64,000 bases of DNA from Gemmatimonadota bacterium (GTDB taxonomy: Bacteria; Gemmatimonadota; Gemmatimonadetes; Gemmatimonadales; GWC2-71-9): positions 38,116-102,115 of the forward strand of contig QHTZ01000067.1 in NCBI GenBank assembly GCA_003221005.1. Direction: 5' to 3'. The position numbers and the translations under genes are program-made. The notes beneath the pieces were generated by a model. The model was not told where the DNA came from, searched no databases, and worked only from the letters and a program-made list of their open reading frames with translations. This document shows, in pieces, positions 45,328 to 53,593 of the stretch (positions within the stretch are counted from its first letter, which is position 1; every line of letters starts with the position of its first letter).

Positions 45328-46557
45328 TTACGGGTCGAACCGGTCCAGCTTCCGGTCCCGCCGCCGCGCGAGCCAGTAGAGCGGCACGCCCAGGATCAGC
45401 GTCGCCCCTGAGGCGACCCACGCCTCAGCGATCCCCCGTGTGCGCGCGAGCCATCCCCATCCCGTCTGCCCGGCCACGCCACCCACGTTCGCGAAGAATG
45501 AATCGAGCGAGATGATCGTGGCTCGCTGCTGCGACGGGATGTGGGCGTTGAGATAGCCCTGCTTCACCGGCATCCCCACGCCGAGTGCCATGCCATAGAC
45601 GAGGTACAGCCCCACCACCACGTAGAAGTCCCGCAGCAGGCCGCACAGGACTACCGTGACCACCTGCACGACCACTGACGCGATCAGCATTCCGGTGCGC
45701 GAGCGAACGACGCGCGACAGCGGCACGACAAGCGCATTGCCGGCGATCAGCGTGAGCGACGTGAGCGCGGCGATCACCCCCGACACCCACACCGCCTCCC
45801 GCCCCAGCAGGTCCAGGAAGTAGCGCTGCCAGCTGTAGAAGCCGAAGATCATAAAGCTCATCGAGACGAGCGACCCGAGCATCAGCGGCCGGACCACCGG
45901 GTGGTGCAAGCCGTAGCGCATGCCCTCCACGAACACGCGCCGCATCTCCGCCGGCACGCGCGACAACGCGAGCGCACGCGGGGTGTAGCCGAGCTCGCGC
46001 ATCCCGAACCAGGCCAGCGCGAACAACGGCACCACGATTCCCGCCCGCACGAGGTAGGGCACGGCGAGATCGATCTGACCCAGCAAGCCGCCGGCGAGGG
46101 TACCGACCAGCATCGCCGCGCCGAACGCCATCTGACCGCGCGCGAACACCGGCTCGAGCGGCGCGGTGTACCCCGTCGCCTTGAGAGCGTCGACCAGCCA
46201 TGCGTCCACCGCGCCGGTGTAGAACGTGTAGCCGAGTCCCAGAAACACCGACACGGCGGCGAACGGCCAGAAGCCCCACCCGAGCCGCGCGATCGCCACG
46301 TAGCAGAGTGTGGTGACGAACAAGGTGGCGAGGCACAACAGCAGCGAAATACGCCGCCCGAGGGTGTCGGCGACGACGCCGGTGGGGATCTCGAACAGGA
46401 CGTTGCCCAGCGTGAACGCGGCATTCGTGAGCATCACCTGGAAGATGTCCAACCCCGCGTGGAGCTTGAACAGCGTGTCGATGCCCCAGATCAGGGACAT
46501 CGCCAGGTTGAAGAGCCCGGTGATCAGCAGGTAGACGCGGATGATCTGTGCGCTCAC
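45328..46557 (-). CDS. MFS transporter
   Basis: 409 aa with 12 TM-like segments. GVVADTLGRRISL motif. The GTG overlaps the upstream stop (GTGA). Confidence 0.8.
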   Translation of the reverse strand: MSAQIIRVYLLITGLFNLAMSLIWGIDTLFKLHAGLDIFQVMLTNAAFTLGNVLFEIPTGVVADTLGRRISLLLCLATLFVTTLCYVAIARLGWGFWPFAAVSVFLGLGYTFYTGAVDAWLVDALKATGYTAPLEPVFARGQMAFGAAMLVGTLAGGLLGQIDLAVPYLVRAGIVVPLFALAWFGMRELGYTPRALALSRVPAEMRRVFVEGMRYGLHHPVVRPLMLGSLVSMSFMIFGFYSWQRYFLDLLGREAVWVSGVIAALTSLTLIAGNALVVPLSRVVRSRTGMLIASVVVQVVTVVLCGLLRDFYVVVGLYLVYGMALGVGMPVKQGYLNAHIPSQQRATIISLDSFFANVGGVAGQTGWGWLARTRGIAEAWVASGATLILGVPLYWLARRRDRKLDRFDP

Positions 46558-47423
46558 GGAACGTGCGCCTCGAGCCAGTCGTGCGCGATCGCCCGGATGT
46601 CCTGGTGCTGCACGTCGGCCAGCGCATTCAAGCGCCGCATCTCGTCGTCCGAGATCTTGCCGGTCAGCTCGCCGAGCGCGGCCGCCACCTCGGGATGGCG
46701 CCGCAACACCACTTCACGCGCGACGACCGCGGCTTCGTAGGGAGGGAAGTAATGCCGATCGTCTTCCAGGGCGACGAGATCGAGCGCGGCGATCTGACCG
46801 TCCGTCGAGTTGCCGGCGATCATGTCCACCTTTCCGTCGGCGAGCGCGCGGTAGGTGAGTCCCAAGTCCATCGCGGTCGGAGGCGCGCGGAAGGCAAGCC
46901 TGTACACCTGCGACAGCCCGGCGAATCCGTCTGCGCGCTCCAGGAACTCGTAACCGAACCCCGCCTTCCACCGCGGCGCGACGCGCGCCACGTCGGAGAT
47001 CCGCGTCAGGCCATATTGCCGCGCTTCCGTCCGGCGGATCAGAATCGCGAACGTGTTGTTGAAGCCGAACGGCGCGAGCCACCGCAGGCCGAAGCGTGCC
47101 GCATAGTCGCGCGCCACGACTCGCGCCACGCTGTCCCGATCGCTCACCGGGGGGTGCTTGAGCACCGCCGTGAACGCGGTGCCCGTGTACTCGGGATAGA
47201 GATCGATCTGTCCCGCGACGATCGCCTGATGACACACGAACGTGCCACCCAGGTGCAGGCGTCGCTCCACGGGCAGGTGCGCGCGCCGCTCGATCTGCTG
47301 CGCCACGAGCTCGGCGAGCAAGTCGGACTCCGTGAAGTTCTTGGCGCCCACGACGATCCGGTCGTGCCGGGCACACGAACTTGCTGCGGAGAGCGCGAGC
47401 ACCGCGGCGAGCAACGCGAGCAT
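46554..47423 (-). CDS. Quaternary-amine (glycine betaine/choline type, OpuAC-fold) ABC substrate-binding lipoprotein
   Basis: Lipobox LSAASSC. IVVGAKNFTESDLLAELVAQQIE...IDLYPEYTGT is typical of OpuBC/OsmX-type binding proteins. The start could be further upstream (up to 47525). Confidence 0.75.
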   Translation of the reverse strand: MLALLAAVLALSAASSCARHDRIVVGAKNFTESDLLAELVAQQIERRAHLPVERRLHLGGTFVCHQAIVAGQIDLYPEYTGTAFTAVLKHPPVSDRDSVARVVARDYAARFGLRWLAPFGFNNTFAILIRRTEARQYGLTRISDVARVAPRWKAGFGYEFLERADGFAGLSQVYRLAFRAPPTAMDLGLTYRALADGKVDMIAGNSTDGQIAALDLVALEDDRHYFPPYEAAVVAREVVLRRHPEVAAALGELTGKISDDEMRRLNALADVQHQDIRAIAHDWLEAHVP

Positions 47424-47550
47424 GCCGGCCCGGCGTTTCCCGTGCCCTGAAGGGCCGGCTCGGCGTAAACGCGCGTCTTTAAAGACGCGACCTCGGCCGA
47501 GCCGGCGTTTCAACGCACGGACCACACGTGAGGCCAGGTGGGAGTCCTGC

Positions 47551-48180
47551 TCACCTTGCCCGCCACACCAGCCGCCGCTCGAGCAGCGCGAACAGGCCGT
47601 CCGCCGCCAGCGCCATCAGCGCCGCCGGGATCGCGCCCGCGAGGATCAAGGTGTCGTCCACCACCGCCACGCCGCGGAAGACGTAGACGCCGAGCCCGCC
47701 CGCGCCGATCGCGGCGCCGATCGTAGCCACGCCCACGCTCACGACCGTCGCGACGCGCACACCCGCGAGAATGACCGCCGCAGCGAGGGGCAGCTCCACC
47801 AGCCGCAGCAGCTCGGCGTCCGTCATCCCCATGCCGCGACCGGCTTCGCGGATGGCTGGGTCCACGCCCGCGATTCCCGTGTAGGTGTTGCGCACGATGG
47901 GGAGTAGCGCGTACACGATCAGCGCGGTGATCGCCGTCCAGAACCCGATGCCGAAGATCGGAATGAGGATCCCGAAGAGCGCGAGGCTCGGGATCGTCTG
48001 GAACACCCCCGCGAGCCCGAGCACGGGGGGCCGCCACGCGGGTCGGCGGGTGAGCACCACGCCGAGGGGAATCCCCACGAGTGCCGCGGCACCGGTCGAG
48101 AGTACCACCAAGACGAGGTGCTGACCGACGAGACCGAGTGCCTCATGGGCGTTGCGCGCGAAGAACGCTACCAACCTCAT
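47551..48180 (-). CDS. ABC transporter permease (OpuBB-like)
   Basis: 209 aa, 5-6 TM, with an EAA-like loop IREAGRGMGMTDAELLRLVELP. Confidence 0.8.
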   Translation of the reverse strand: MRLVAFFARNAHEALGLVGQHLVLVVLSTGAAALVGIPLGVVLTRRPAWRPPVLGLAGVFQTIPSLALFGILIPIFGIGFWTAITALIVYALLPIVRNTYTGIAGVDPAIREAGRGMGMTDAELLRLVELPLAAAVILAGVRVATVVSVGVATIGAAIGAGGLGVYVFRGVAVVDDTLILAGAIPAALMALAADGLFALLERRLVWRAR

Positions 48181-48929
48181 GCCGCCTCCAGGAAGCGGCG
48201 GACCTCGGGGTGCTCGTTGCGACGGAATTCGTCGGGGGTACCGAGGAACAGCAGCCGTCCCGCATGCATCAACCCGATGCGCGTCCCCAGGAGCAGCCCC
48301 TCCCGCACGTCGTGGGTCACGAACACCATGCCCTTTCCCAGCCGCCCCTCGAGGGCGCGGAATTCCTGCTGCAGTTCGAAGCGCGTAATGGGATCGAGTG
48401 CGCCGAACGGCTCGTCCAGGAGCAGCAGCGGCGGGTCGGCAGCGAGCGCGCGCGCCACCCCGACCCGCTGCCGCTGACCGCCCGAGAGCTGGTGCGGATA
48501 GCGTCCACCGAACGCCTCCGGGTCGAGCCCCACGAGCGCGAGCAGCTCGCGCACCCGGGCCGCGATCCGCTCTGGAGGCCAGCGTTCGAGCCGCGGCACG
48601 AGTCCCGCGTTCTCGGCCACCGTGAAATGCGGCAGCAGACCCACCTCCTGAATCACGTAGCCGATCCGCCGCCGCAGCGACGTGGGCTCGAGCGCCGCGG
48701 TCCGCTGCCCCGCCACCAACACCTCCCCCACCGAAGGCTCGAGCAGACGGTTGATGAGCTTAAGTGTGGTCGTCTTCCCAGAGCCGCTGCGGCCGAGGAG
48801 CACGAGGGTCTCTCCTGCACCCACAGTGAAGGACACGTCCCGGACGATCGGCAGGACCCGTCCCTCCTCCCCCGTCCCTCTTCCCGGCAACGTATAGCCG
48901 AGTCCCCGGACCTCGAGCACGGCGCTCAT
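48177..48929 (-). CDS. ABC transporter ATP-binding protein
   Basis: Walker A GRSGSGKTT, signature LSGGQRQRV, Walker B LLLLDEP. The ATG at 48927-48929 overlaps the upstream stop (ATGA). Confidence 0.9.
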   Translation of the reverse strand: MSAVLEVRGLGYTLPGRGTGEEGRVLPIVRDVSFTVGAGETLVLLGRSGSGKTTTLKLINRLLEPSVGEVLVAGQRTAALEPTSLRRRIGYVIQEVGLLPHFTVAENAGLVPRLERWPPERIAARVRELLALVGLDPEAFGGRYPHQLSGGQRQRVGVARALAADPPLLLLDEPFGALDPITRFELQQEFRALEGRLGKGMVFVTHDVREGLLLGTRIGLMHAGRLLFLGTPDEFRRNEHPEVRRFLEAA

Positions 48930-49879
48930 TGCGCCCCCGCCCCCACCAGCACCATTTGAAAGCGGCCGTCTTCGCTCGTCCCGCGCCAGCGCTGCCCGAG
49001 GCCGGCATCTCGCAGGATTCGCAGGAACGTGTCGGCGTCGTACTTGTACGAGTGGTTCATTTCCAGCCGCTCGCCGGCACCGAGGGTCAGGGACTCTCCG
49101 CCGAGCCGGGCGGCGACGTCGCGGGTCGCCCGGAAGTGCTTGGTGAGGGGATGCAGCCCGGGGACGCGCGCGTCCTCGCGGTCCTCGAACACGAGCTCGC
49201 CGTCGGCCTCGGTGATCCCGACGGCGTGGAGCGGCGCCCACGCGAAGCGCCGGTTCAGGGGGTTGTCATAGCCAGCGACGGTGGCCTGGGCGGCGTAGAT
49301 CTCGCCGTCCACGAGGAGCAGGTCGTCCCCGCGGAGCAGTTTCCGCAGGGCCCGCGTCTCGACCAGCGGATCGAATGCGCCGAGGGTGTTGCCCAGGAGC
49401 AAAATCAGGCGCGGCGGCGTTTCGGGATTAGGCGCCAGTGCAGTGAGGTGGTCGGTCCGTGTGAAGTCGGCCTTGACGCCCTGGGCGGGGAGCCCCGCGG
49501 CGACGGCGCCCTGACACGCGAGCTCGAGCAACGCCTGGCTCGTGTCTACGGGCGTGTAGGAGACGCGGATCCCGTGGGGTCGCAGCGCTTCGATGAGAAG
49601 CAGGTCCTTGTCCCCCTGCCCCGAGCCCAGGCTCAGGACCTCGAGCGGGCCGGGGGGTATGTAGCCAGCGAGGTCGGCGGCGGACCGAGCGATGAGCGAG
49701 CGCGACCGCACGTAGTTCCGGTAGGCGCCGTCCGAGCAGAGGGCGAGCCAGGCTCGGACGGACAGCGGAAACCAATAGAAGAATTTCTCCGGGAGCCGAC
49801 GCGCGCGAAACGCGGCGACGAACTCGTCGGCGAGCGCGGTCTCGGTAAGTAGCGTGTGAGTGACGATCACGGAGTTCAA
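48926..49879 (-). CDS. Methyltransf_33 / EgtD-family SAM-dependent N-methyltransferase (divergent)
   Basis: LPEKFFYW..., LSLGSGQGDKDLLLIEAL, LLLGNTLGAFDP and ...LEMNHSYKYDADTFLRILRDAGL follow the layout of histidine N-alpha-methyltransferase-type enzymes. The His-binding N-terminal motifs are not well conserved. Confidence 0.55.
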   Translation of the reverse strand: MNSVIVTHTLLTETALADEFVAAFRARRLPEKFFYWFPLSVRAWLALCSDGAYRNYVRSRSLIARSAADLAGYIPPGPLEVLSLGSGQGDKDLLLIEALRPHGIRVSYTPVDTSQALLELACQGAVAAGLPAQGVKADFTRTDHLTALAPNPETPPRLILLLGNTLGAFDPLVETRALRKLLRGDDLLLVDGEIYAAQATVAGYDNPLNRRFAWAPLHAVGITEADGELVFEDREDARVPGLHPLTKHFRATRDVAARLGGESLTLGAGERLEMNHSYKYDADTFLRILRDAGLGQRWRGTSEDGRFQMVLVGAGAQ

Positions 49880-49969: not shown

Positions 49970-50062
49970 ATGCAGATCGTCGAGACGCAGGAGCTCGTGC
50001 CCACCTGTCATCGGCCTGAGGTCGTGGAGACGAGCGAGCTGCAGCCAACCTGTCACTCCTGA
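49970..50062 (+). CDS. 30-aa candidate RiPP precursor with two tandem ETxELxPTCH units
   Basis: GGAGG lies 9 nt upstream of the ATG. The ORF encodes MQIVETQELVPTCHRPEVVETSELQPTCHS. It is first in an operon with a DUF692 enzyme and RRE-like domains. Confidence 0.6.
   Translation: MQIVETQELVPTCHRPEVVETSELQPTCHS
49982..50056 (+). repeat. Two 30-nt direct repeats (45-nt period) encoding the ETxELxPTCH units
   Basis: gagacgcaggagctcgtgcccacctgtcat and gagacgagcgagctgcagccaacctgtcac. Confidence 0.8.
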
Positions 50063-50076
50063 CGCAGGGCGGCTGG

Positions 50077-51201
50077 ATGCAAGAGGGGGCCCGGACCGAT
50101 TTCGGGCCCCTTTCGCGTTTCCTGGGCACGGAGGCGCGACTGGGGTTCGGGGGCTGGGCGGTGGGCGGCGCGGGCTGGGGGACGCCAGACGACACGCACG
50201 AGCGCGAGGCCGCGATCCGGCGCGCCGTCGAGCGGGGCGTCACGTTCTTCGACACCGCGCCGACGTACGGTGACGGCGAGTCCGAGCGACTGCTGGGCCG
50301 CGCGCTCGGAACCGTGCGCGAGCGGGTGGCGATCGCCACCAAGGTCGGCCCGCGCGACGATCCACGCGCCTCACTCGAAGCGTCGCTGCGCCGCCTCACC
50401 ACGGACTGCGTGGACCTGGTGCAGCTGCACGAAGCGCTCGAACGGTGGGAATGGCAACTCGAAGCGCTCTATCGGCTGCAGCTCGAGGGAAAGGCCCTCG
50501 CGATCGGGCTCTGCAACGCCACTCACCTGCAGGTCGCGCGGGCGCTGACCATCGCTCCCCTGGCGACGTATCAGGGCACCTACAACCTGTTCGATCGCGA
50601 CGTAGAAGAGCGCGAGCTGCCACTGTGCCGCGAACGTGGCCTCGCGTTCCTGGCATTCCGGCCGCTCGCCGCAGGCCTGCTCACCGGCAAGTACCGGGAG
50701 CCTCCCGCCTTCCCGGACGATGACCACCGCCGCAAGGTCTATTGGTTCAAGGGGAAGGAGTTCGAGCGCCGCCAGCGGACGATCGAGCGGCTGCGGCGCG
50801 TTGCGCGCCGGGAGGGCGTGTCGCTGCTCGAGCTCGCCCTGGGGTGGCTGCGCGCGCGGCCGGGGGTGAACATGGTCCTGGTGGGCGCGAGAAACCGGTC
50901 GCAGGTCGAGGAGGCGTTCGTCCCGGGCGTCGGGCCGCTGACAGCGGACACGGTGAACGAGATCGACCTCATAGTCCGCGAGGTCTTCCGCCCGGGCCGC
51001 GGCACGGCGCAACTCGAGCGGGCGGCCGCGACGTGGGGAGAGCGCGAGCGCTTCATCGCGGCGCGGCTCGACGGGAAGACTCGCTACGAAGCGATCGCCG
51101 CCGAGTGGACCGACCGCGGCGAACAGCCGATGATCGCGGCGCAGATCAAGGTGTTCGTGGACCAGTTGGCTGAGCAACGGTTGGTTGACGCCGACGGCTG
51201 A
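50077..51201 (+). CDS. Aldo/keto reductase with a C-terminal PqqD/RRE-like extension
   Basis: AKR core FFDTAPTYGDGESERLLG, IATKVG and VDLVQLHE (Asp/Tyr/Lys/His all present). An extra tail of about 55 aa reads ERERFIAARLDGKTRYEAIAAEWTDRGEQPMIAAQIKVFVDQLAEQRLV. Confidence 0.75.
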   Translation: MQEGARTDFGPLSRFLGTEARLGFGGWAVGGAGWGTPDDTHEREAAIRRAVERGVTFFDTAPTYGDGESERLLGRALGTVRERVAIATKVGPRDDPRASLEASLRRLTTDCVDLVQLHEALERWEWQLEALYRLQLEGKALAIGLCNATHLQVARALTIAPLATYQGTYNLFDRDVEERELPLCRERGLAFLAFRPLAAGLLTGKYREPPAFPDDDHRRKVYWFKGKEFERRQRTIERLRRVARREGVSLLELALGWLRARPGVNMVLVGARNRSQVEEAFVPGVGPLTADTVNEIDLIVREVFRPGRGTAQLERAAATWGERERFIAARLDGKTRYEAIAAEWTDRGEQPMIAAQIKVFVDQLAEQRLVDADG

Positions 51202-51207
51202 CCGCTG

Positions 51208-51993
51208 ATGGCTCTCATGGTCGGGGCGTTCTACAACCCTCAGCTCGGCGCTGAGCTCGCTGCGGCGAAGGGCATCGACCACCTCGCCATGGCCGACCCG
51301 CCGGCAGCACACGATGCGCACTGGCCCACCATCCGCGAGCGCTACACGCTGCTGCTCCACGACTACCTCGGCCAGCTCTCCGAGCCGCTCGATGAACGCT
51401 CGATCGAGCGTGCCCGCTCCCTCGCTACGTTGTACCGCACACCGTGGATCGCCGAGCATTTCCAGTGCCTGCACACGGAAGACGGGCGCTACAACATCAA
51501 CTACGTGTTCCCGCCGCTCTACACCGACGAGTTTCTGGAGCGTTTCGTCGCCAACGCACGCGCGCTCCAGGCGCGGCTCGAGCAGCCGCTCGTGATGGAG
51601 AACATCCCCGGCTTCTTCGACGTCAAGGCGAGCCAGCTCCCGGAGCCTGTCTGGCTCGCGCGTTTCTTCGACGCGACCGAGGTCGGCTTTCTGCTCGACC
51701 TGCCGCACGTTTGGCTCGAGGCCCACTACCGCGGCATGAAGCCTGAAGCGTGGCTCGCGCAATTCCCGCTCGAGCACGTAGTCGAGCTGCACGTGGCCGG
51801 CGTCGAGGAGGACGAGGACCTGCGAGGTCCCTGGATCGCGCCCACCGCCCCGTCGGAGGCCATGCTCGCGTTTCTGGCGCACGCCGTCACTCGCTGTCCC
51901 CGGGCCAAGGCTGTCACGTTCGACGCATTTTCGCCGTCGCTCACCGCCGACGTGCTGTTCCGGAGCGTTGAACGGATCCGGGGGGCGCTGTGA
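51208..51993 (+). CDS. DUF692-family TIM-barrel enzyme (MNIO; MbnB/TglH/ChrH/BufB family)
   Basis: LLLHDYLGQLSEPLD, TPWIAEHF, LVMENIPGFF and GFLLDLPHVWLEAHYRG...VVELHVAG follow the DUF692 motif order. Confidence 0.7.
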   Translation: MALMVGAFYNPQLGAELAAAKGIDHLAMADPPAAHDAHWPTIRERYTLLLHDYLGQLSEPLDERSIERARSLATLYRTPWIAEHFQCLHTEDGRYNINYVFPPLYTDEFLERFVANARALQARLEQPLVMENIPGFFDVKASQLPEPVWLARFFDATEVGFLLDLPHVWLEAHYRGMKPEAWLAQFPLEHVVELHVAGVEEDEDLRGPWIAPTAPSEAMLAFLAHAVTRCPRAKAVTFDAFSPSLTADVLFRSVERIRGAL

Positions 51994-52760
51994 CCGACCG
52001 GGCACTCCAGGACCTGGTGCTGCGCGCGCTGGCCGACGCCTCGTTCCGGGCGTCATCCGCCTGGCGGCAGCGTGCGCTCGCGGACCCCGCGAAGGTGGAG
52101 CGGTTCGCACGCTTCCTCGCGCGGCACTTCTACTACGAGCGGATCGTGCACTTCTTCAAGTACTCGGGGGCGCTGGCGCGTGTGACCGGCCGGCGACCAG
52201 AGGGGACGCTCCGCGGTGCCGAATTCGAAGCGCTGCTCCCCGTGGTCGTACTCGGCAGTCGGCAGACGGCTCGCGCGGTCGCCGATCTCGTCGTGCGCGA
52301 AGTGAAGGGCGGCGCCCCCGTGGCCTCGATCCCATATCGCGACGACTTGCTGCGCTACGAGGCGGCGATGATGGTCGCGGAGGCGGGGCCGAGGGTGTGG
52401 CGAGAGAACGGGAAGGGGGAAGAGGGAAGAGGAACGGGTGTCCCGGAAACCGCTGAAGGAACAGTGCTGCTGGATCTCGCCTACGACCTACCGGCGGTCC
52501 TGCCGCAGCTGCTCCAGCCGTGGACCGAGGTGCCGCAGGCGCCGCCGCGACCGGTGCGACTCCTCGTCGCGCGCTCGCCCCGCGGCCGGGTCGCGGTCGC
52601 TCGCACCGACAGCGCGGTGGCGCGCGTGGTCGAGCTCGCGGACGGCCGCCGCACCCTCGAAGAGCTCGCACGCGCGGCCGGGTTGCCGCGGAACGAGCTC
52701 GAGGCCACGCTCGCCGGGCTCACCGACCTCGGCGCCGTTCGCTTCGGGACGGGCAGCTGA
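51990..52760 (+). CDS. MNIO partner protein with a C-terminal PqqD/RRE-like winged helix
   Basis: The GTG overlaps the DUF692 stop (GTGA). The C-terminus reads VARVVELADGRRTLEELARAAGLPRNELEATLAGLTDLGAV. Confidence 0.6.
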   Translation: MTDRALQDLVLRALADASFRASSAWRQRALADPAKVERFARFLARHFYYERIVHFFKYSGALARVTGRRPEGTLRGAEFEALLPVVVLGSRQTARAVADLVVREVKGGAPVASIPYRDDLLRYEAAMMVAEAGPRVWRENGKGEEGRGTGVPETAEGTVLLDLAYDLPAVLPQLLQPWTEVPQAPPRPVRLLVARSPRGRVAVARTDSAVARVVELADGRRTLEELARAAGLPRNELEATLAGLTDLGAVRFGTGS

Positions 52761-52771
52761 GCGCCGTGGCG

Positions 52772-53593
52772 TTACGCGGGCTTTCGCGCGCGCACGAACG
52801 CGCCCATGATCCTGCCGCTCACCTCGCGCGCCAGGACATCGACGTCGAGCCCGGCCCCAGCCAGCACGGCCCGCGCATCCTCGAAGCTGTAGATCCGGGT
52901 CGGCTCGATCCCGACGTTTTCGAAGCCGTTCGCGCTAAGCAGCGCCTTGAACTCTTCCTCCTCGAGGGCGCCGGCCACGCATCCCACCCACAGCTCCATG
53001 CTGCGGCGCACCTCACGCGGGATCTCCCCCCGCACCACGACGTCGGAGACGGCGAACCGGCCACCGGGCTTGAGCACGCGAAACGCCTCGGCCAGCACCC
53101 GCCGCTTATCGGCGGCGAGGTTGATGACGCAGTTCGAGATGATGACGTCCACCGACGCGTCCGGAAGAGGAATGCGCTCGATGTCCCCTTTCAAGAACTC
53201 GACGTTCTCGACCCCGGCCTTCCGCTGGTTTTCGCGCGCCAGGGCGAGCATCTCGTCGGTCATGTCGAGCCCGTACGCCTTGCCGGTCGGCCCCACGCGC
53301 CGGGCGGAGAGCAGCACGTCGATGCCCCCGCCGGAGCCGAGGTCGAGCACCACTTCTCCCGGGAGCAGCTCGGCGAGCGCAGTTGGGTTGCCGCAGCCGA
53401 GCGAAGCGAGCACGGCTTGCTCGGGGAGGGACGCGGTCTCAGCAGCCTCGTACAGGTTGGATGTGACGGGATCGCAGCCGCCGCTCGCTGCGGCGCCGCC
53501 GCAACACGAGCTTCCCTGCCCGTGCAGCACGCGCAGCGCCGCCTCTCCGTACTTCGCCCGTACGGTGTCCTTGATCACGGTGTCGTCGGTCAT
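52772..53593 (-). CDS. arsM: Arsenite S-adenosylmethyltransferase-like methyltransferase
   Basis: N-terminal Cys pairs (GSSCCGG...GGCD) and motif I VVLDLGSGGGIDVLL. LKPGGRFAVSDVV is typical of ArsM. Confidence 0.8.
   Translation of the reverse strand: MTDDTVIKDTVRAKYGEAALRVLHGQGSSCCGGAAASGGCDPVTSNLYEAAETASLPEQAVLASLGCGNPTALAELLPGEVVLDLGSGGGIDVLLSARRVGPTGKAYGLDMTDEMLALARENQRKAGVENVEFLKGDIERIPLPDASVDVIISNCVINLAADKRRVLAEAFRVLKPGGRFAVSDVVVRGEIPREVRRSMELWVGCVAGALEEEEFKALLSANGFENVGIEPTRIYSFEDARAVLAGAGLDVDVLAREVSGRIMGAFVRARKPA

What the first reader, a model, noticed from the sequence alone, without database searches (positions are those of the whole stretch)
50077..51201. Aldo/keto reductase fused to a PqqD-like peptide-binding tail
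The AKR core appears catalytically complete (Asp, Tyr, Lys and His contexts are present). After the normal end of the barrel, the protein continues for about 55 residues (…ERERFIAARLDGKTRYEAIAAEWTDRGEQPMIAAQIKVFVDQLAEQRLV…). This matches the 'LDG-x-(R/T)-…-eia…-v…fl..L…gl(v/i)' pattern of PqqD/RRE domains. An RRE on a reductase implies that it acts on the leader-bound peptide. For example, it could reduce a carbonyl or imine generated by the MNIO. I do not recall this tailoring step from characterised MNIO pathways.
Basis: partly seen in the sequence, partly recalled or inferred. Interest (0 to 1): 0.6.

Follow-up and report, generated by a model that had tools for sequence, protein, structure and literature searches.

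The report
Reductase with a peptide-recognition-like tail
An ordinary-looking NADPH reductase carries a conserved tail of about 70 residues that resembles the helical half of the peptide-grabbing domain of peptide natural-product pathways; this fusion occurs only inside one iron-oxidase peptide gene cluster, so it is probably an undescribed tailoring enzyme, but peptide binding has not been shown.

Summary
ORF 50077-51201 (+) encodes a 374-aa AKR11-like aldo/keto reductase with the barrel at residues 21-299 and an aligned Asp59/Tyr64/Lys89/His118 tetrad. A C-terminal extension follows, and it is as conserved as the barrel.

The extension is a diverged PqqD/RRE-type winged-helix domain:
- Pfam PqqD is the best hit for all 37 homologous tails, but always below the family cut-off.
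- hhalign against 30 genuine PqqD domains gives E 1.6e-5 and probability 79% over 50 columns.
- Structure search puts PqqD and leader-bound lasso B1 RREs at Z 6.2-6.7, tied with other winged helices.

Only the three helices match. The window's clade lacks a ~20-residue segment that looks like the beta hairpin and is kept by rarer long-tail relatives.

The tail is found only on this AKR clade: 30 hits in 1.84 billion representatives, nearly all AKR fusions or likely fragments of them. Wherever the contig allows, the fusion lies in the cassette of Cys-His-repeat precursor, AKR-tail, MNIO and partner (about 75 loci).

Peptide binding is not shown, and the reaction is inferred. I rate it a new variant of a known kind, of moderate interest. 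The scan had already noted this cassette on the same DNA.

The parts
49970..50062 (+). Precursor peptide gene: 30 codons, two units of the form (I/V)VETxELxP(S/T)CH
   Evidence: ORF and RBS. Conserved in every related locus with enough upstream sequence; 18 of 30 positions invariant. Relatives L038 and G104 carry four units.
50077..51201 (+). AKR-tail fusion gene (374 aa)
   Evidence: AF2 model: mean pLDDT 90.4, pTM 0.90.
50137..50973 (+). Aldo/keto reductase (beta/alpha)8 barrel, residues 21-299, with the tetrad D59/Y64/K89/H118
   Evidence: Pfam PF00248 E 1.2e-59. AKR11B 1pz1 and AKR11A 1pyf are the top structural and sequence matches. Tetrad invariant in alignment A1.
50974..51036 (+). Linker, residues 300-320: a short helix at 311-317. 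It replaces the hairpin-like segment of long-tail relatives.
   Evidence: AF2 secondary structure. Alignment with long-tail forms shows a 20-residue gap here. Lower conservation, 0.65.
51037..51189 (+). PqqD/RRE-like three-helix part of the tail, residues 321-371 (helices 322-330, 337-346, 354-366)
   Evidence: Pfam PqqD sub-threshold hit, profile positions 21-67. hhalign E 1.6e-5, 50 columns. VIA-align Z 6.7 to PqqD 3g2b and lasso B1 6jx3. Conservation 0.80 against 0.78 for the barrel.
51208..51993 (+). MNIO (DUF692) oxidase
   Evidence: Pfam MbnB_TglH_ChrH E 1e-26. NCBIfam best hits are ApyH and BufB, both far below the equivalog cut-offs. It starts 7 nt after the AKR stop.
51990..52760 (+). 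MNIO partner protein with its own RRE-like C-terminus (about residues 205-252)
   Evidence: Weak hits to NGO1945_C, ApyI and HvfC. An xxELADGrrTLeEL pattern at the C-terminus. A 4-nt overlap with the MNIO stop.
48926..49879 (-). Divergently transcribed EgtD-like (Methyltransf_33) methyltransferase, kept next to the cassette even in distant relatives
   Evidence: Pfam E 4e-24. Present in related loci with enough upstream sequence, including L038 and G104 at 49-52% identity.

Best explanation
The gene encodes a tailoring reductase of an MNIO-type RiPP pathway. An AKR11-like NAD(P)H-dependent barrel is fused to a reduced PqqD/RRE-family winged-helix domain. Shown here: the domain make-up, the intact catalytic tetrad, strong purifying selection on the tail, its restriction to this AKR clade, and its fixed place between the Cys-His-repeat precursor gene and the MNIO and partner genes. 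Inferred: the tail, perhaps using its invariant Arg323/Arg325 and helix 3, holds the acidic EIVETxEL part of each precursor unit. This would place the MNIO-modified P-(S/T)-C-H unit at the barrel's active site, where a hydride from NAD(P)H reduces a carbonyl-type group made by the MNIO, adding about 2 Da per modified unit. The partner protein has its own RRE-like C-terminus, so the oxidase and the reductase would each bring their own recognition module.
For: - AKR domain and tetrad.
- Tail related to PqqD: PF05402 is the best and only recurrent family for 37 of 37 tails (best E 6.5e-5). hhalign of the tail profile against 30 real Gemmatimonadota PqqD domains gives probability 79%, E 1.6e-5, 50 columns. 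The partner's wHTH, used as a comparison, gave only 15 columns at E 0.014 against the same PqqD alignment.
- Fold: the tail-only AF2 model has pLDDT 84, and the tail reaches 93-97 in the full-length model. Seven RRE entries are in the top 50 of 48,161 chains: 3g2b Z 6.7, 6jx3_B with leader Z 6.7 over 68 residues, 5v1u Z 6.2, 8t19 5.5, 5sxy 5.3, 8vpo 5.2, 4v1t 4.6.
- Long-tail relatives carry a hairpin-like segment just before helix 1, which suggests descent from a complete RRE.
- Exclusivity: a profile search of 1.84 billion representatives found 30 hits. All six examined that have Pfam domains and a single matched stretch are AKR fusions or fragments. Three multi-stretch hits look spurious, one of them confirmed as a zinc-finger repeat. 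No stand-alone form or other fusion was found.
- Context: 35 of 38 genome loci and about 35 of 40 metagenome loci show precursor, AKR-tail and MNIO in one operon, and the rest are cut by contig ends. AKRs at 44% identity or less lack both the tail and the MNIO.
- Co-occurrence: in 151 sampled genomes of the phylum, the tail is in 5 and the MNIO in the same 5 plus one decayed copy.
- Conservation: the tail is as conserved as the barrel.
Against: - The Pfam PqqD score (about 17 bits) is below the 23.4-bit cut-off, and the genome's two genuine PqqD domains score 66-67 bits.
- Only profile positions 21-67 match. The window's clade lacks the hairpin-like segment, and its model shows only one- or two-residue bridges. 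From established knowledge of solved RRE complexes, that sheet is the canonical leader-binding element.
- Foldseek found nothing significant (best E 1.9).
- The VIA Z values of 6-7 tie with GATOR1, PKMT and AsnC winged helices and lie in the range the tool calls common.
- The tail has no net positive charge: 12 K+R against 13 D+E.
- No binding or activity data exist, and the MNIO's product is unknown, so the reduced group is a guess.
Confidence: 0.55

Rival explanations
1. The tail is a protein-protein docking module. It attaches the reductase to the MNIO-partner complex, or makes AKR oligomers, rather than binding the peptide. The substrate would then be handed over within a complex.
For: The canonical peptide-binding hairpin is missing in this clade. 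The top structural matches include winged helices that act as protein-protein modules: GATOR1/SEA Z 7.1-7.2, PKMT Z 5.5-6.0. The partner already has an RRE-like C-terminus that could serve the whole pathway. The tail's high pLDDT in the full model, 93-97 against about 88 alone, suggests that it packs on the barrel.
Against: The only family detectable by sequence is PqqD, whose known role is peptide binding. Long-tail relatives appear to keep the hairpin. No test of contacts with the MNIO or the partner was possible.
Confidence: 0.25
2. The tail is an active-site lid or stability element specific to this AKR clade. Its PqqD resemblance would be an evolutionary relic with no recognition role, and the AKR might even act on a small molecule released from the peptide.
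For: AKR C-terminal segments commonly shape the substrate pocket (general knowledge of the family). The match to PqqD is partial and below the cut-off. The cassette sits beside an EgtD-like methyltransferase and a betaine-type ABC importer, which hints at a small-molecule end product.
Against: A relic would not be expected to be as conserved as the barrel, yet 29 tail positions are at least 90% conserved, including surface-type residues Arg, Glu, Asp and Gln. The domain folds on its own in the model (pLDDT 84).
Confidence: 0.12
3. The tail is a DNA-binding winged helix that makes the enzyme a moonlighting regulator of the cassette.
For: Many fold-search rows are transcription factors of the AsnC/Lrp, Fur and sigma region 4 types.
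Against: The third helix, the usual recognition helix, carries one Lys and several acidic residues, and the tail as a whole is slightly acidic. No DNA-binding family reaches significance by sequence; Sigma70_r4_2 hit 1 of 37 tails at E 0.022. The wing is reduced.
Confidence: 0.03

Closest known systems
PqqD and discrete or fused RiPP recognition elements (RREs), for example lasso-peptide B1 proteins (6jx3, 5v1u), PbtF RRE (8t19), and the LynD/TruD N-terminal domains
   Same: The same three-helix core with the LDG-x-T...EIA...D-x-L...GLV sequence pattern. Sequence-profile and fold similarity. Fused to a tailoring enzyme inside a RiPP-type operon.
   Different: Below the Pfam cut-off. The N-terminal three-stranded sheet is reduced to a short helix in the window's clade. 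It is fused to an aldo/keto reductase, a host enzyme class for which I found no report in the held library. Binding is not shown.
AKR11 family reductases (B. subtilis YhdN/GSP69 1pz1, IolS 1pyf, Gluconobacter AKR11B4 3n2t)
   Same: 32-33% identity over the barrel and the same catalytic tetrad.
   Different: These enzymes end shortly after the barrel and act on small carbonyl compounds. None has a winged-helix tail or lies in a peptide cassette.
MNIO pathways with RRE-bearing partner proteins: captophorins, bufferins and oxazolins (MNIO plus a DUF2063-RRE PME1 partner, 10.1101/2025.11.18.689057) and aminopyruvatide ApyHI (PMC11117315)
   Same: An MNIO, a partner with a C-terminal RRE-like region, and a short repeat-type Cys-containing precursor. 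ApyH and BufB are the best NCBIfam models for this MNIO.
   Different: All scores are far below the equivalog cut-offs (105 against 400 bits; 86 against 310). The repeat is P-(S/T)-C-H rather than EGKCG or Cys-Lys. No reductase is mentioned in the main text of the captophorin preprint (0 occurrences of 'reductase').
ElxO in epilancin 15X biosynthesis (recalled from the literature, not checked here)
   Same: A precedent for an NADPH-dependent reduction of a peptide-borne keto group (pyruvyl to lactyl) as a RiPP tailoring step.
   Different: ElxO is a short-chain dehydrogenase without an RRE, from a lanthipeptide pathway. The resemblance is functional only.

Membership tests
Aldo/keto reductase superfamily (PF00248) | (beta/alpha)8 barrel that matches the family model above its cut-off | tested here: met
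   202 bits against a cut-off of 24, residues 21-299. AF2 model matched to 1pz1: Foldseek E 1.8e-23, TM 0.71-0.80.
Aldo/keto reductase superfamily (PF00248) | Catalytic tetrad Asp-Tyr-Lys-His | tested here: met
   D59, Y64, K89 and H118 are invariant in 44 homologues and aligned with the corresponding blocks of AKR11B.
Aldo/keto reductase superfamily (PF00248) | NAD(P)H binding and carbonyl reduction | not testable with these tools
   Needs an enzyme assay.
PqqD / RRE (PF05402) | Score at or above the Pfam gathering cut-off (23.4 bits) | tested here: not met
   16.6-17.3 bits; 15.8 bits in the whole-genome scan, where two genuine PqqD domains score 66-67 bits.
PqqD / RRE (PF05402) | Profile-level homology to genuine PqqD domains | tested here: met
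   hhalign E 1.6e-5, probability 79%, 50 columns covering helices 1-3. 37 of 37 tails hit PF05402 at E <= 1.
PqqD / RRE (PF05402) | Three-stranded antiparallel sheet preceding the helices (the leader-pairing strand) | tested here: not met
   The model shows only one- or two-residue bridges at 308-309, 332 and 370-371. The ~20-residue hairpin-like segment of long-tail relatives is absent.
PqqD / RRE (PF05402) | Winged-helix fold superposable on solved RREs | tested here: inconclusive
   Z 6.7 with rmsd 2.4 over 57 residues (3g2b), and Z 6.7 with rmsd 2.7 over 68 residues (6jx3_B). These are tied with unrelated winged helices at Z 7.1-7.6. Foldseek was not significant.
PqqD / RRE (PF05402) | Binds the precursor peptide | not testable with these tools
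   Needs a binding assay (see the next steps).
MNIO-type RiPP gene cluster | An MNIO (PF05114), a partner protein and a short precursor in one operon | tested here: met
   The arrangement is conserved in about 75 loci.

The most novel reading that the evidence does not exclude
The AKR-RRE fusion would mark an undescribed MNIO peptide family in which each P-(S/T)-Cys-His unit is oxidised by the MNIO and then reduced by a peptide-recruited aldo/keto reductase. Together with the conserved EgtD-like methyltransferase and the betaine-type ABC transporter, the cassette might yield a methylated thio-histidine-like or other sulfur-containing product by a ribosomal route.
Probability: 0.15. Interest if true: 0.85.

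Novelty: new variant of a known kind. Interest (0 to 1): 0.55.

Why it matters
RRE domains are the main handle for finding and understanding RiPP pathways. An RRE-derived domain on an aldo/keto reductase would add a new enzyme class to leader-guided tailoring and a reductive step to MNIO chemistry, which so far is described as purely oxidative. The comparison between the hairpin-less tail and the long-tail form is also a natural experiment on how much of an RRE is needed for recognition. The cassette is compact, with four genes and a 30-mer, so the idea can be tested directly by co-expression and mass spectrometry.

Tried and rejected
- Complex prediction with the full AKR alignment, NADP and the precursor alignment gave no verdict (ipSAE 0.01-0.02, controls not run). 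It counts neither for nor against binding.
I took genomic context from the search for related loci and the genome search instead.
- phmmer and hmmsearch of the tail against PDB sequences found nothing relevant.
- Foldseek of the tail model against the PDB gave no significant match.
- The ESM Atlas look-up of the tail was uninformative (score 0.75, unnamed cluster).
- hhalign of the partner protein against the tail (E 0.025, probability 2%) gives no sign that the tail is a recent copy of the partner's RRE.
- hhalign of the long-tail forms against PqqD extended the match to 63 columns including the putative beta3, but with only 8 sequences the probability was 28% and E 6e-4.
- The metagenome scan aimed at long-tail relatives returned only the short-tail clade.
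- The 'common AKR extension' idea is rejected. AKRs at 44% identity or less in about 80 other loci have neither the tail nor an MNIO neighbour.
- Literature searches for an AKR in MNIO or RiPP pathways found nothing relevant in the held library, which is incomplete.

Full report
**1. What is at the coordinates**

ORF 50077-51201 (+) is open and encodes 374 residues. Pfam places an aldo/keto reductase domain at residues 21-299 (E 1.2e-59).

The closest solved proteins are family-11 AKRs. By sequence, B. subtilis GSP69/AKR11B (1pz1) scores E 1.1e-42, and IolS and AKR11B4 follow. An AlphaFold2 model built on 44 homologues has mean pLDDT 90.4 and pTM 0.90, and it matches 1pz1 at Foldseek E 1.8e-23.

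Asp59, Tyr64, Lys89 and His118 are invariant in the 44-sequence alignment. They lie in the blocks that align with the catalytic motifs of 1pz1.

**2. The tail**

About 75 residues follow the Pfam domain. The model gives these elements:
- a short helix at 311-317;
- three helices at 322-330, 337-346 and 354-366;
- only one- or two-residue beta bridges at 308-309, 332 and 370-371.

Block-mean confidence in the tail is 93-97 in the full-length model and about 88 when the tail is folded alone (overall pLDDT 84, pTM 0.71).

The tail is under selection as strong as the barrel. Mean top-residue frequency is 0.80 for residues 321-370 against 0.78 for the barrel, and 29 tail positions are at least 90% conserved.

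**3. Is it PqqD/RRE-like?**

*By sequence.*
- Pfam PqqD is the only hit of the tail (E 0.006-0.01, about 17 bits, profile positions 21-67 of 67).
- It is the top family for all 37 distinct homologous tails (best E 6.5e-5).
- The score is below the 23.4-bit cut-off. In this genome two genuine PqqD domains score 66-67 bits and the tail comes third at 15.8 bits.
- I extracted 30 genuine PqqD domains from genomes of the same phylum and compared profiles. hhalign gives probability 79% and E 1.6e-5 over 50 aligned columns, running from late helix 1 through helix 3 to the C-terminal GLV-type end.
- As a rough comparison, the partner protein's winged helix aligned to the same PqqD profile over only 15 columns at E 0.014.

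*By structure.*
- Foldseek gave nothing significant.
- VIA-align against 48,161 representative chains put seven RRE entries in the top 50:
  - PqqD 3g2b: Z 6.7, rmsd 2.4, 57 residues;
  - lasso B1 with its leader, 6jx3_B: Z 6.7, rmsd 2.7, 68 residues;
  - TbiB1 5v1u: Z 6.2;
  - PbtF RRE 8t19: Z 5.5;
  - PqqCD 5sxy: Z 5.3;
  - TigE 8vpo: Z 5.2;
  - LynD 4v1t: Z 4.6.
- These are tied with unrelated winged helices such as Rv2067c (Z 7.6) and GATOR1/SEA (Z 7.1-7.2), and they lie in the range the tool calls common.

My reading is that the tail is a diverged member of the PqqD/RRE lineage with a winged-helix-type core. This rests mainly on the profile evidence, and the fold evidence is compatible with it.

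**4. A reduced RRE**

More distant AKR-tail proteins are 39-45% identical to the window's enzyme. They are P0137, P0144, P0153-P0156, the L038 locus and genome G104. All carry about 20 extra residues just before helix 1, of the type G-D-V-M-V-R-M-C-D-R-G-I-V-R-T-L-V-V-G.

This stretch has the alternating pattern of the beta2-beta3 hairpin of PqqD domains. With it, hhalign extends the match to 63 columns, but the statistics are weak because only eight sequences were available (probability 28%, E 6e-4).

The window's abundant clade has a short helix in that place. From established knowledge of solved RRE-leader complexes, the strand next to helix 3 pairs with the leader. Its loss is therefore real evidence against a canonical binding mode. 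It does not exclude binding through helix 3 and the conserved Arg323/Arg325.

The two long-tail loci seen in context have four-unit precursors, whereas the short-tail loci have two units. This correlation is confounded by phylogeny.

**5. Where the tail occurs**

A profile of the 37 tails was searched against 1.84 billion representative proteins. It found 30 hits at E <= 0.001. All six examined that have Pfam domains and a single matched stretch are AKR-tail proteins or their C-terminal fragments. Three hits matched in several stretches and look spurious: the one checked is a zinc-finger repeat protein, and two very long proteins were not checked. No stand-alone copy and no fusion to another enzyme was found.

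In genome contigs, 38 Gemmatimonadales loci carry the AKR. In 35 of them the MNIO follows, directly or after one inserted gene, and in the other three the contig ends first. Every locus with enough upstream sequence has the precursor gene, and the EgtD-like methyltransferase lies on the other strand wherever the contig reaches it. About 40 metagenome contigs show the same arrangement. AKRs at 44% identity or less, about 80 loci from many phyla, have neither the tail nor the MNIO.

In 151 sampled genomes of the phylum, the tail was found in 5. The MNIO was found in the same 5, adjacent on the same contig, plus one more genome, G120. The two same-genus genomes in the sample have neither, so this is a patchy accessory cassette. 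These tallies include two unpublished genomes, G057 and G097. Both were negative for the tail and the MNIO, and no sequence from them is used here.

The refutation condition 'a common AKR extension outside peptide loci' is therefore not met.

**6. The cassette**

In order, the genes are:
- precursor, 49970-50062;
- AKR-tail, 50077-51201;
- MNIO, 51208-51993 (Pfam MbnB_TglH_ChrH; the best NCBIfam models are ApyH and BufB, far below their cut-offs);
- partner, 51990-52760 (weak ApyI, HvfC and NGO1945_C similarity, with an RRE-type motif at its C-terminus).

The gaps are 14, 6 and -4 nt, which fits one operon.

Relatives insert accessory genes. An S33-like alpha/beta hydrolase sits between the AKR and the MNIO, and an LssY_C protein or a beta-propeller sits between the MNIO and the partner.

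Upstream on the other strand lie the Methyltransf_33 enzyme, an ABC ATPase, a permease, an OpuAC-type binding protein and an MFS transporter.

**7. Mechanism**

Shown here: an intact reductase fused to a conserved RRE-derived domain, encoded between the substrate gene and the oxidase.

Inferred: the tail recruits the acidic EIVETxEL segment of each unit, and the barrel reduces a carbonyl-type group that the MNIO makes at the P-(S/T)-C-H unit.

The identity of that group is unknown, because the MNIO is not an equivalog of any characterised one. Known MNIO products include keto and heterocyclic carbonyl groups: aminopyruvic acid (PMC11117315), and oxazolone or thiooxazole (10.1101/2025.11.18.689057). 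A reducible group is therefore plausible but not demonstrated.

Rivals are a docking role towards the MNIO-partner complex, a lid or relic role, and DNA binding, which is unlikely.

**8. Comparison and novelty**

RRE fusions to tailoring enzymes are a known principle. I found no report of an RRE-like domain on an aldo/keto reductase, or of a reductase in an MNIO pathway, in the held library, which is incomplete.

I file the enzyme as an AKR. For the tail, 'works like an RRE' is plausible and untested. Membership of Pfam PqqD is not claimed, because the cut-off and the sheet criterion are not met.

Earlier notes of this scan on the same DNA already described the precursor and the divergent operon. 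I re-derived both independently.

**Verdict:** This is a new variant of a known kind, with interest 0.55.

Noticed in passing
L193:1559-2456 (genome G120, minus strand): This is a decayed copy of the cassette. The precursor gene is intact. The AKR gene is deleted in frame, leaving its first 16 codons joined to residue 4 of the MNIO. The MNIO itself has a deletion and frameshift near residue 214. It could be a real natural loss or a MAG assembly artefact.
   Followed up: partly
L038:4718-5104 and L194:2197-2442 (genome G104): Relatives with the long, hairpin-containing AKR tail have precursors with four Cys-His units instead of two. Unit number and tail form may co-vary, but there are only two long-tail loci and the comparison is confounded by phylogeny.
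   Followed up: partly
window 45328-49879 (-): A divergent operon encodes an EgtD-like Methyltransf_33 enzyme, an ABC ATPase, a permease, an OpuAC-type quaternary-amine binding protein and an MFS transporter. The methyltransferase stays next to the cassette even in relatives at 45% AKR identity, which hints at a methylated, betaine-like product or its transport.
   Followed up: partly
L010:3492-4559, L035:6993-8048; L007:6775-7974, L008:7910-9106; L014:7922-8959, L035:8853-9830: Related cassettes carry variable accessory genes. An S33-type alpha/beta hydrolase lies between the AKR and the MNIO. An LssY_C-domain protein or a beta-propeller (DUF6923 / Vgb-lyase-like) lies between the MNIO and the partner. 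The window's cassette has none of them.
   Followed up: partly
G000:C113:429-629 and G000:C110:1852-2052 (same genome, other contigs): Two genuine PqqD-domain ORFs (both in 161-aa open frames, 66-67 bits) lie on two short contigs. They may be a repeated or split-assembled RiPP locus unrelated to this cassette.
   Followed up: no
protein P0033: A homologue 69% identical to the AKR-tail protein is labelled Acidimicrobiales in NCBI, whereas all other named ones are Gemmatimonadota. This is either mis-binning or horizontal transfer of the cassette.
   Followed up: no
window 52772-53593 (-): A class-I SAM methyltransferase (Methyltransf_31/11/25) lies just downstream of the partner gene on the opposite strand, next to rpsU. 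I did not check whether it belongs to the cassette.
   Followed up: no
(151 genomes of the phylum): The cassette is patchy. It was found in 5-6 of 151 sampled genomes and not in the two sampled genomes of the same genus, as expected for an accessory biosynthetic cluster.
   Followed up: yes
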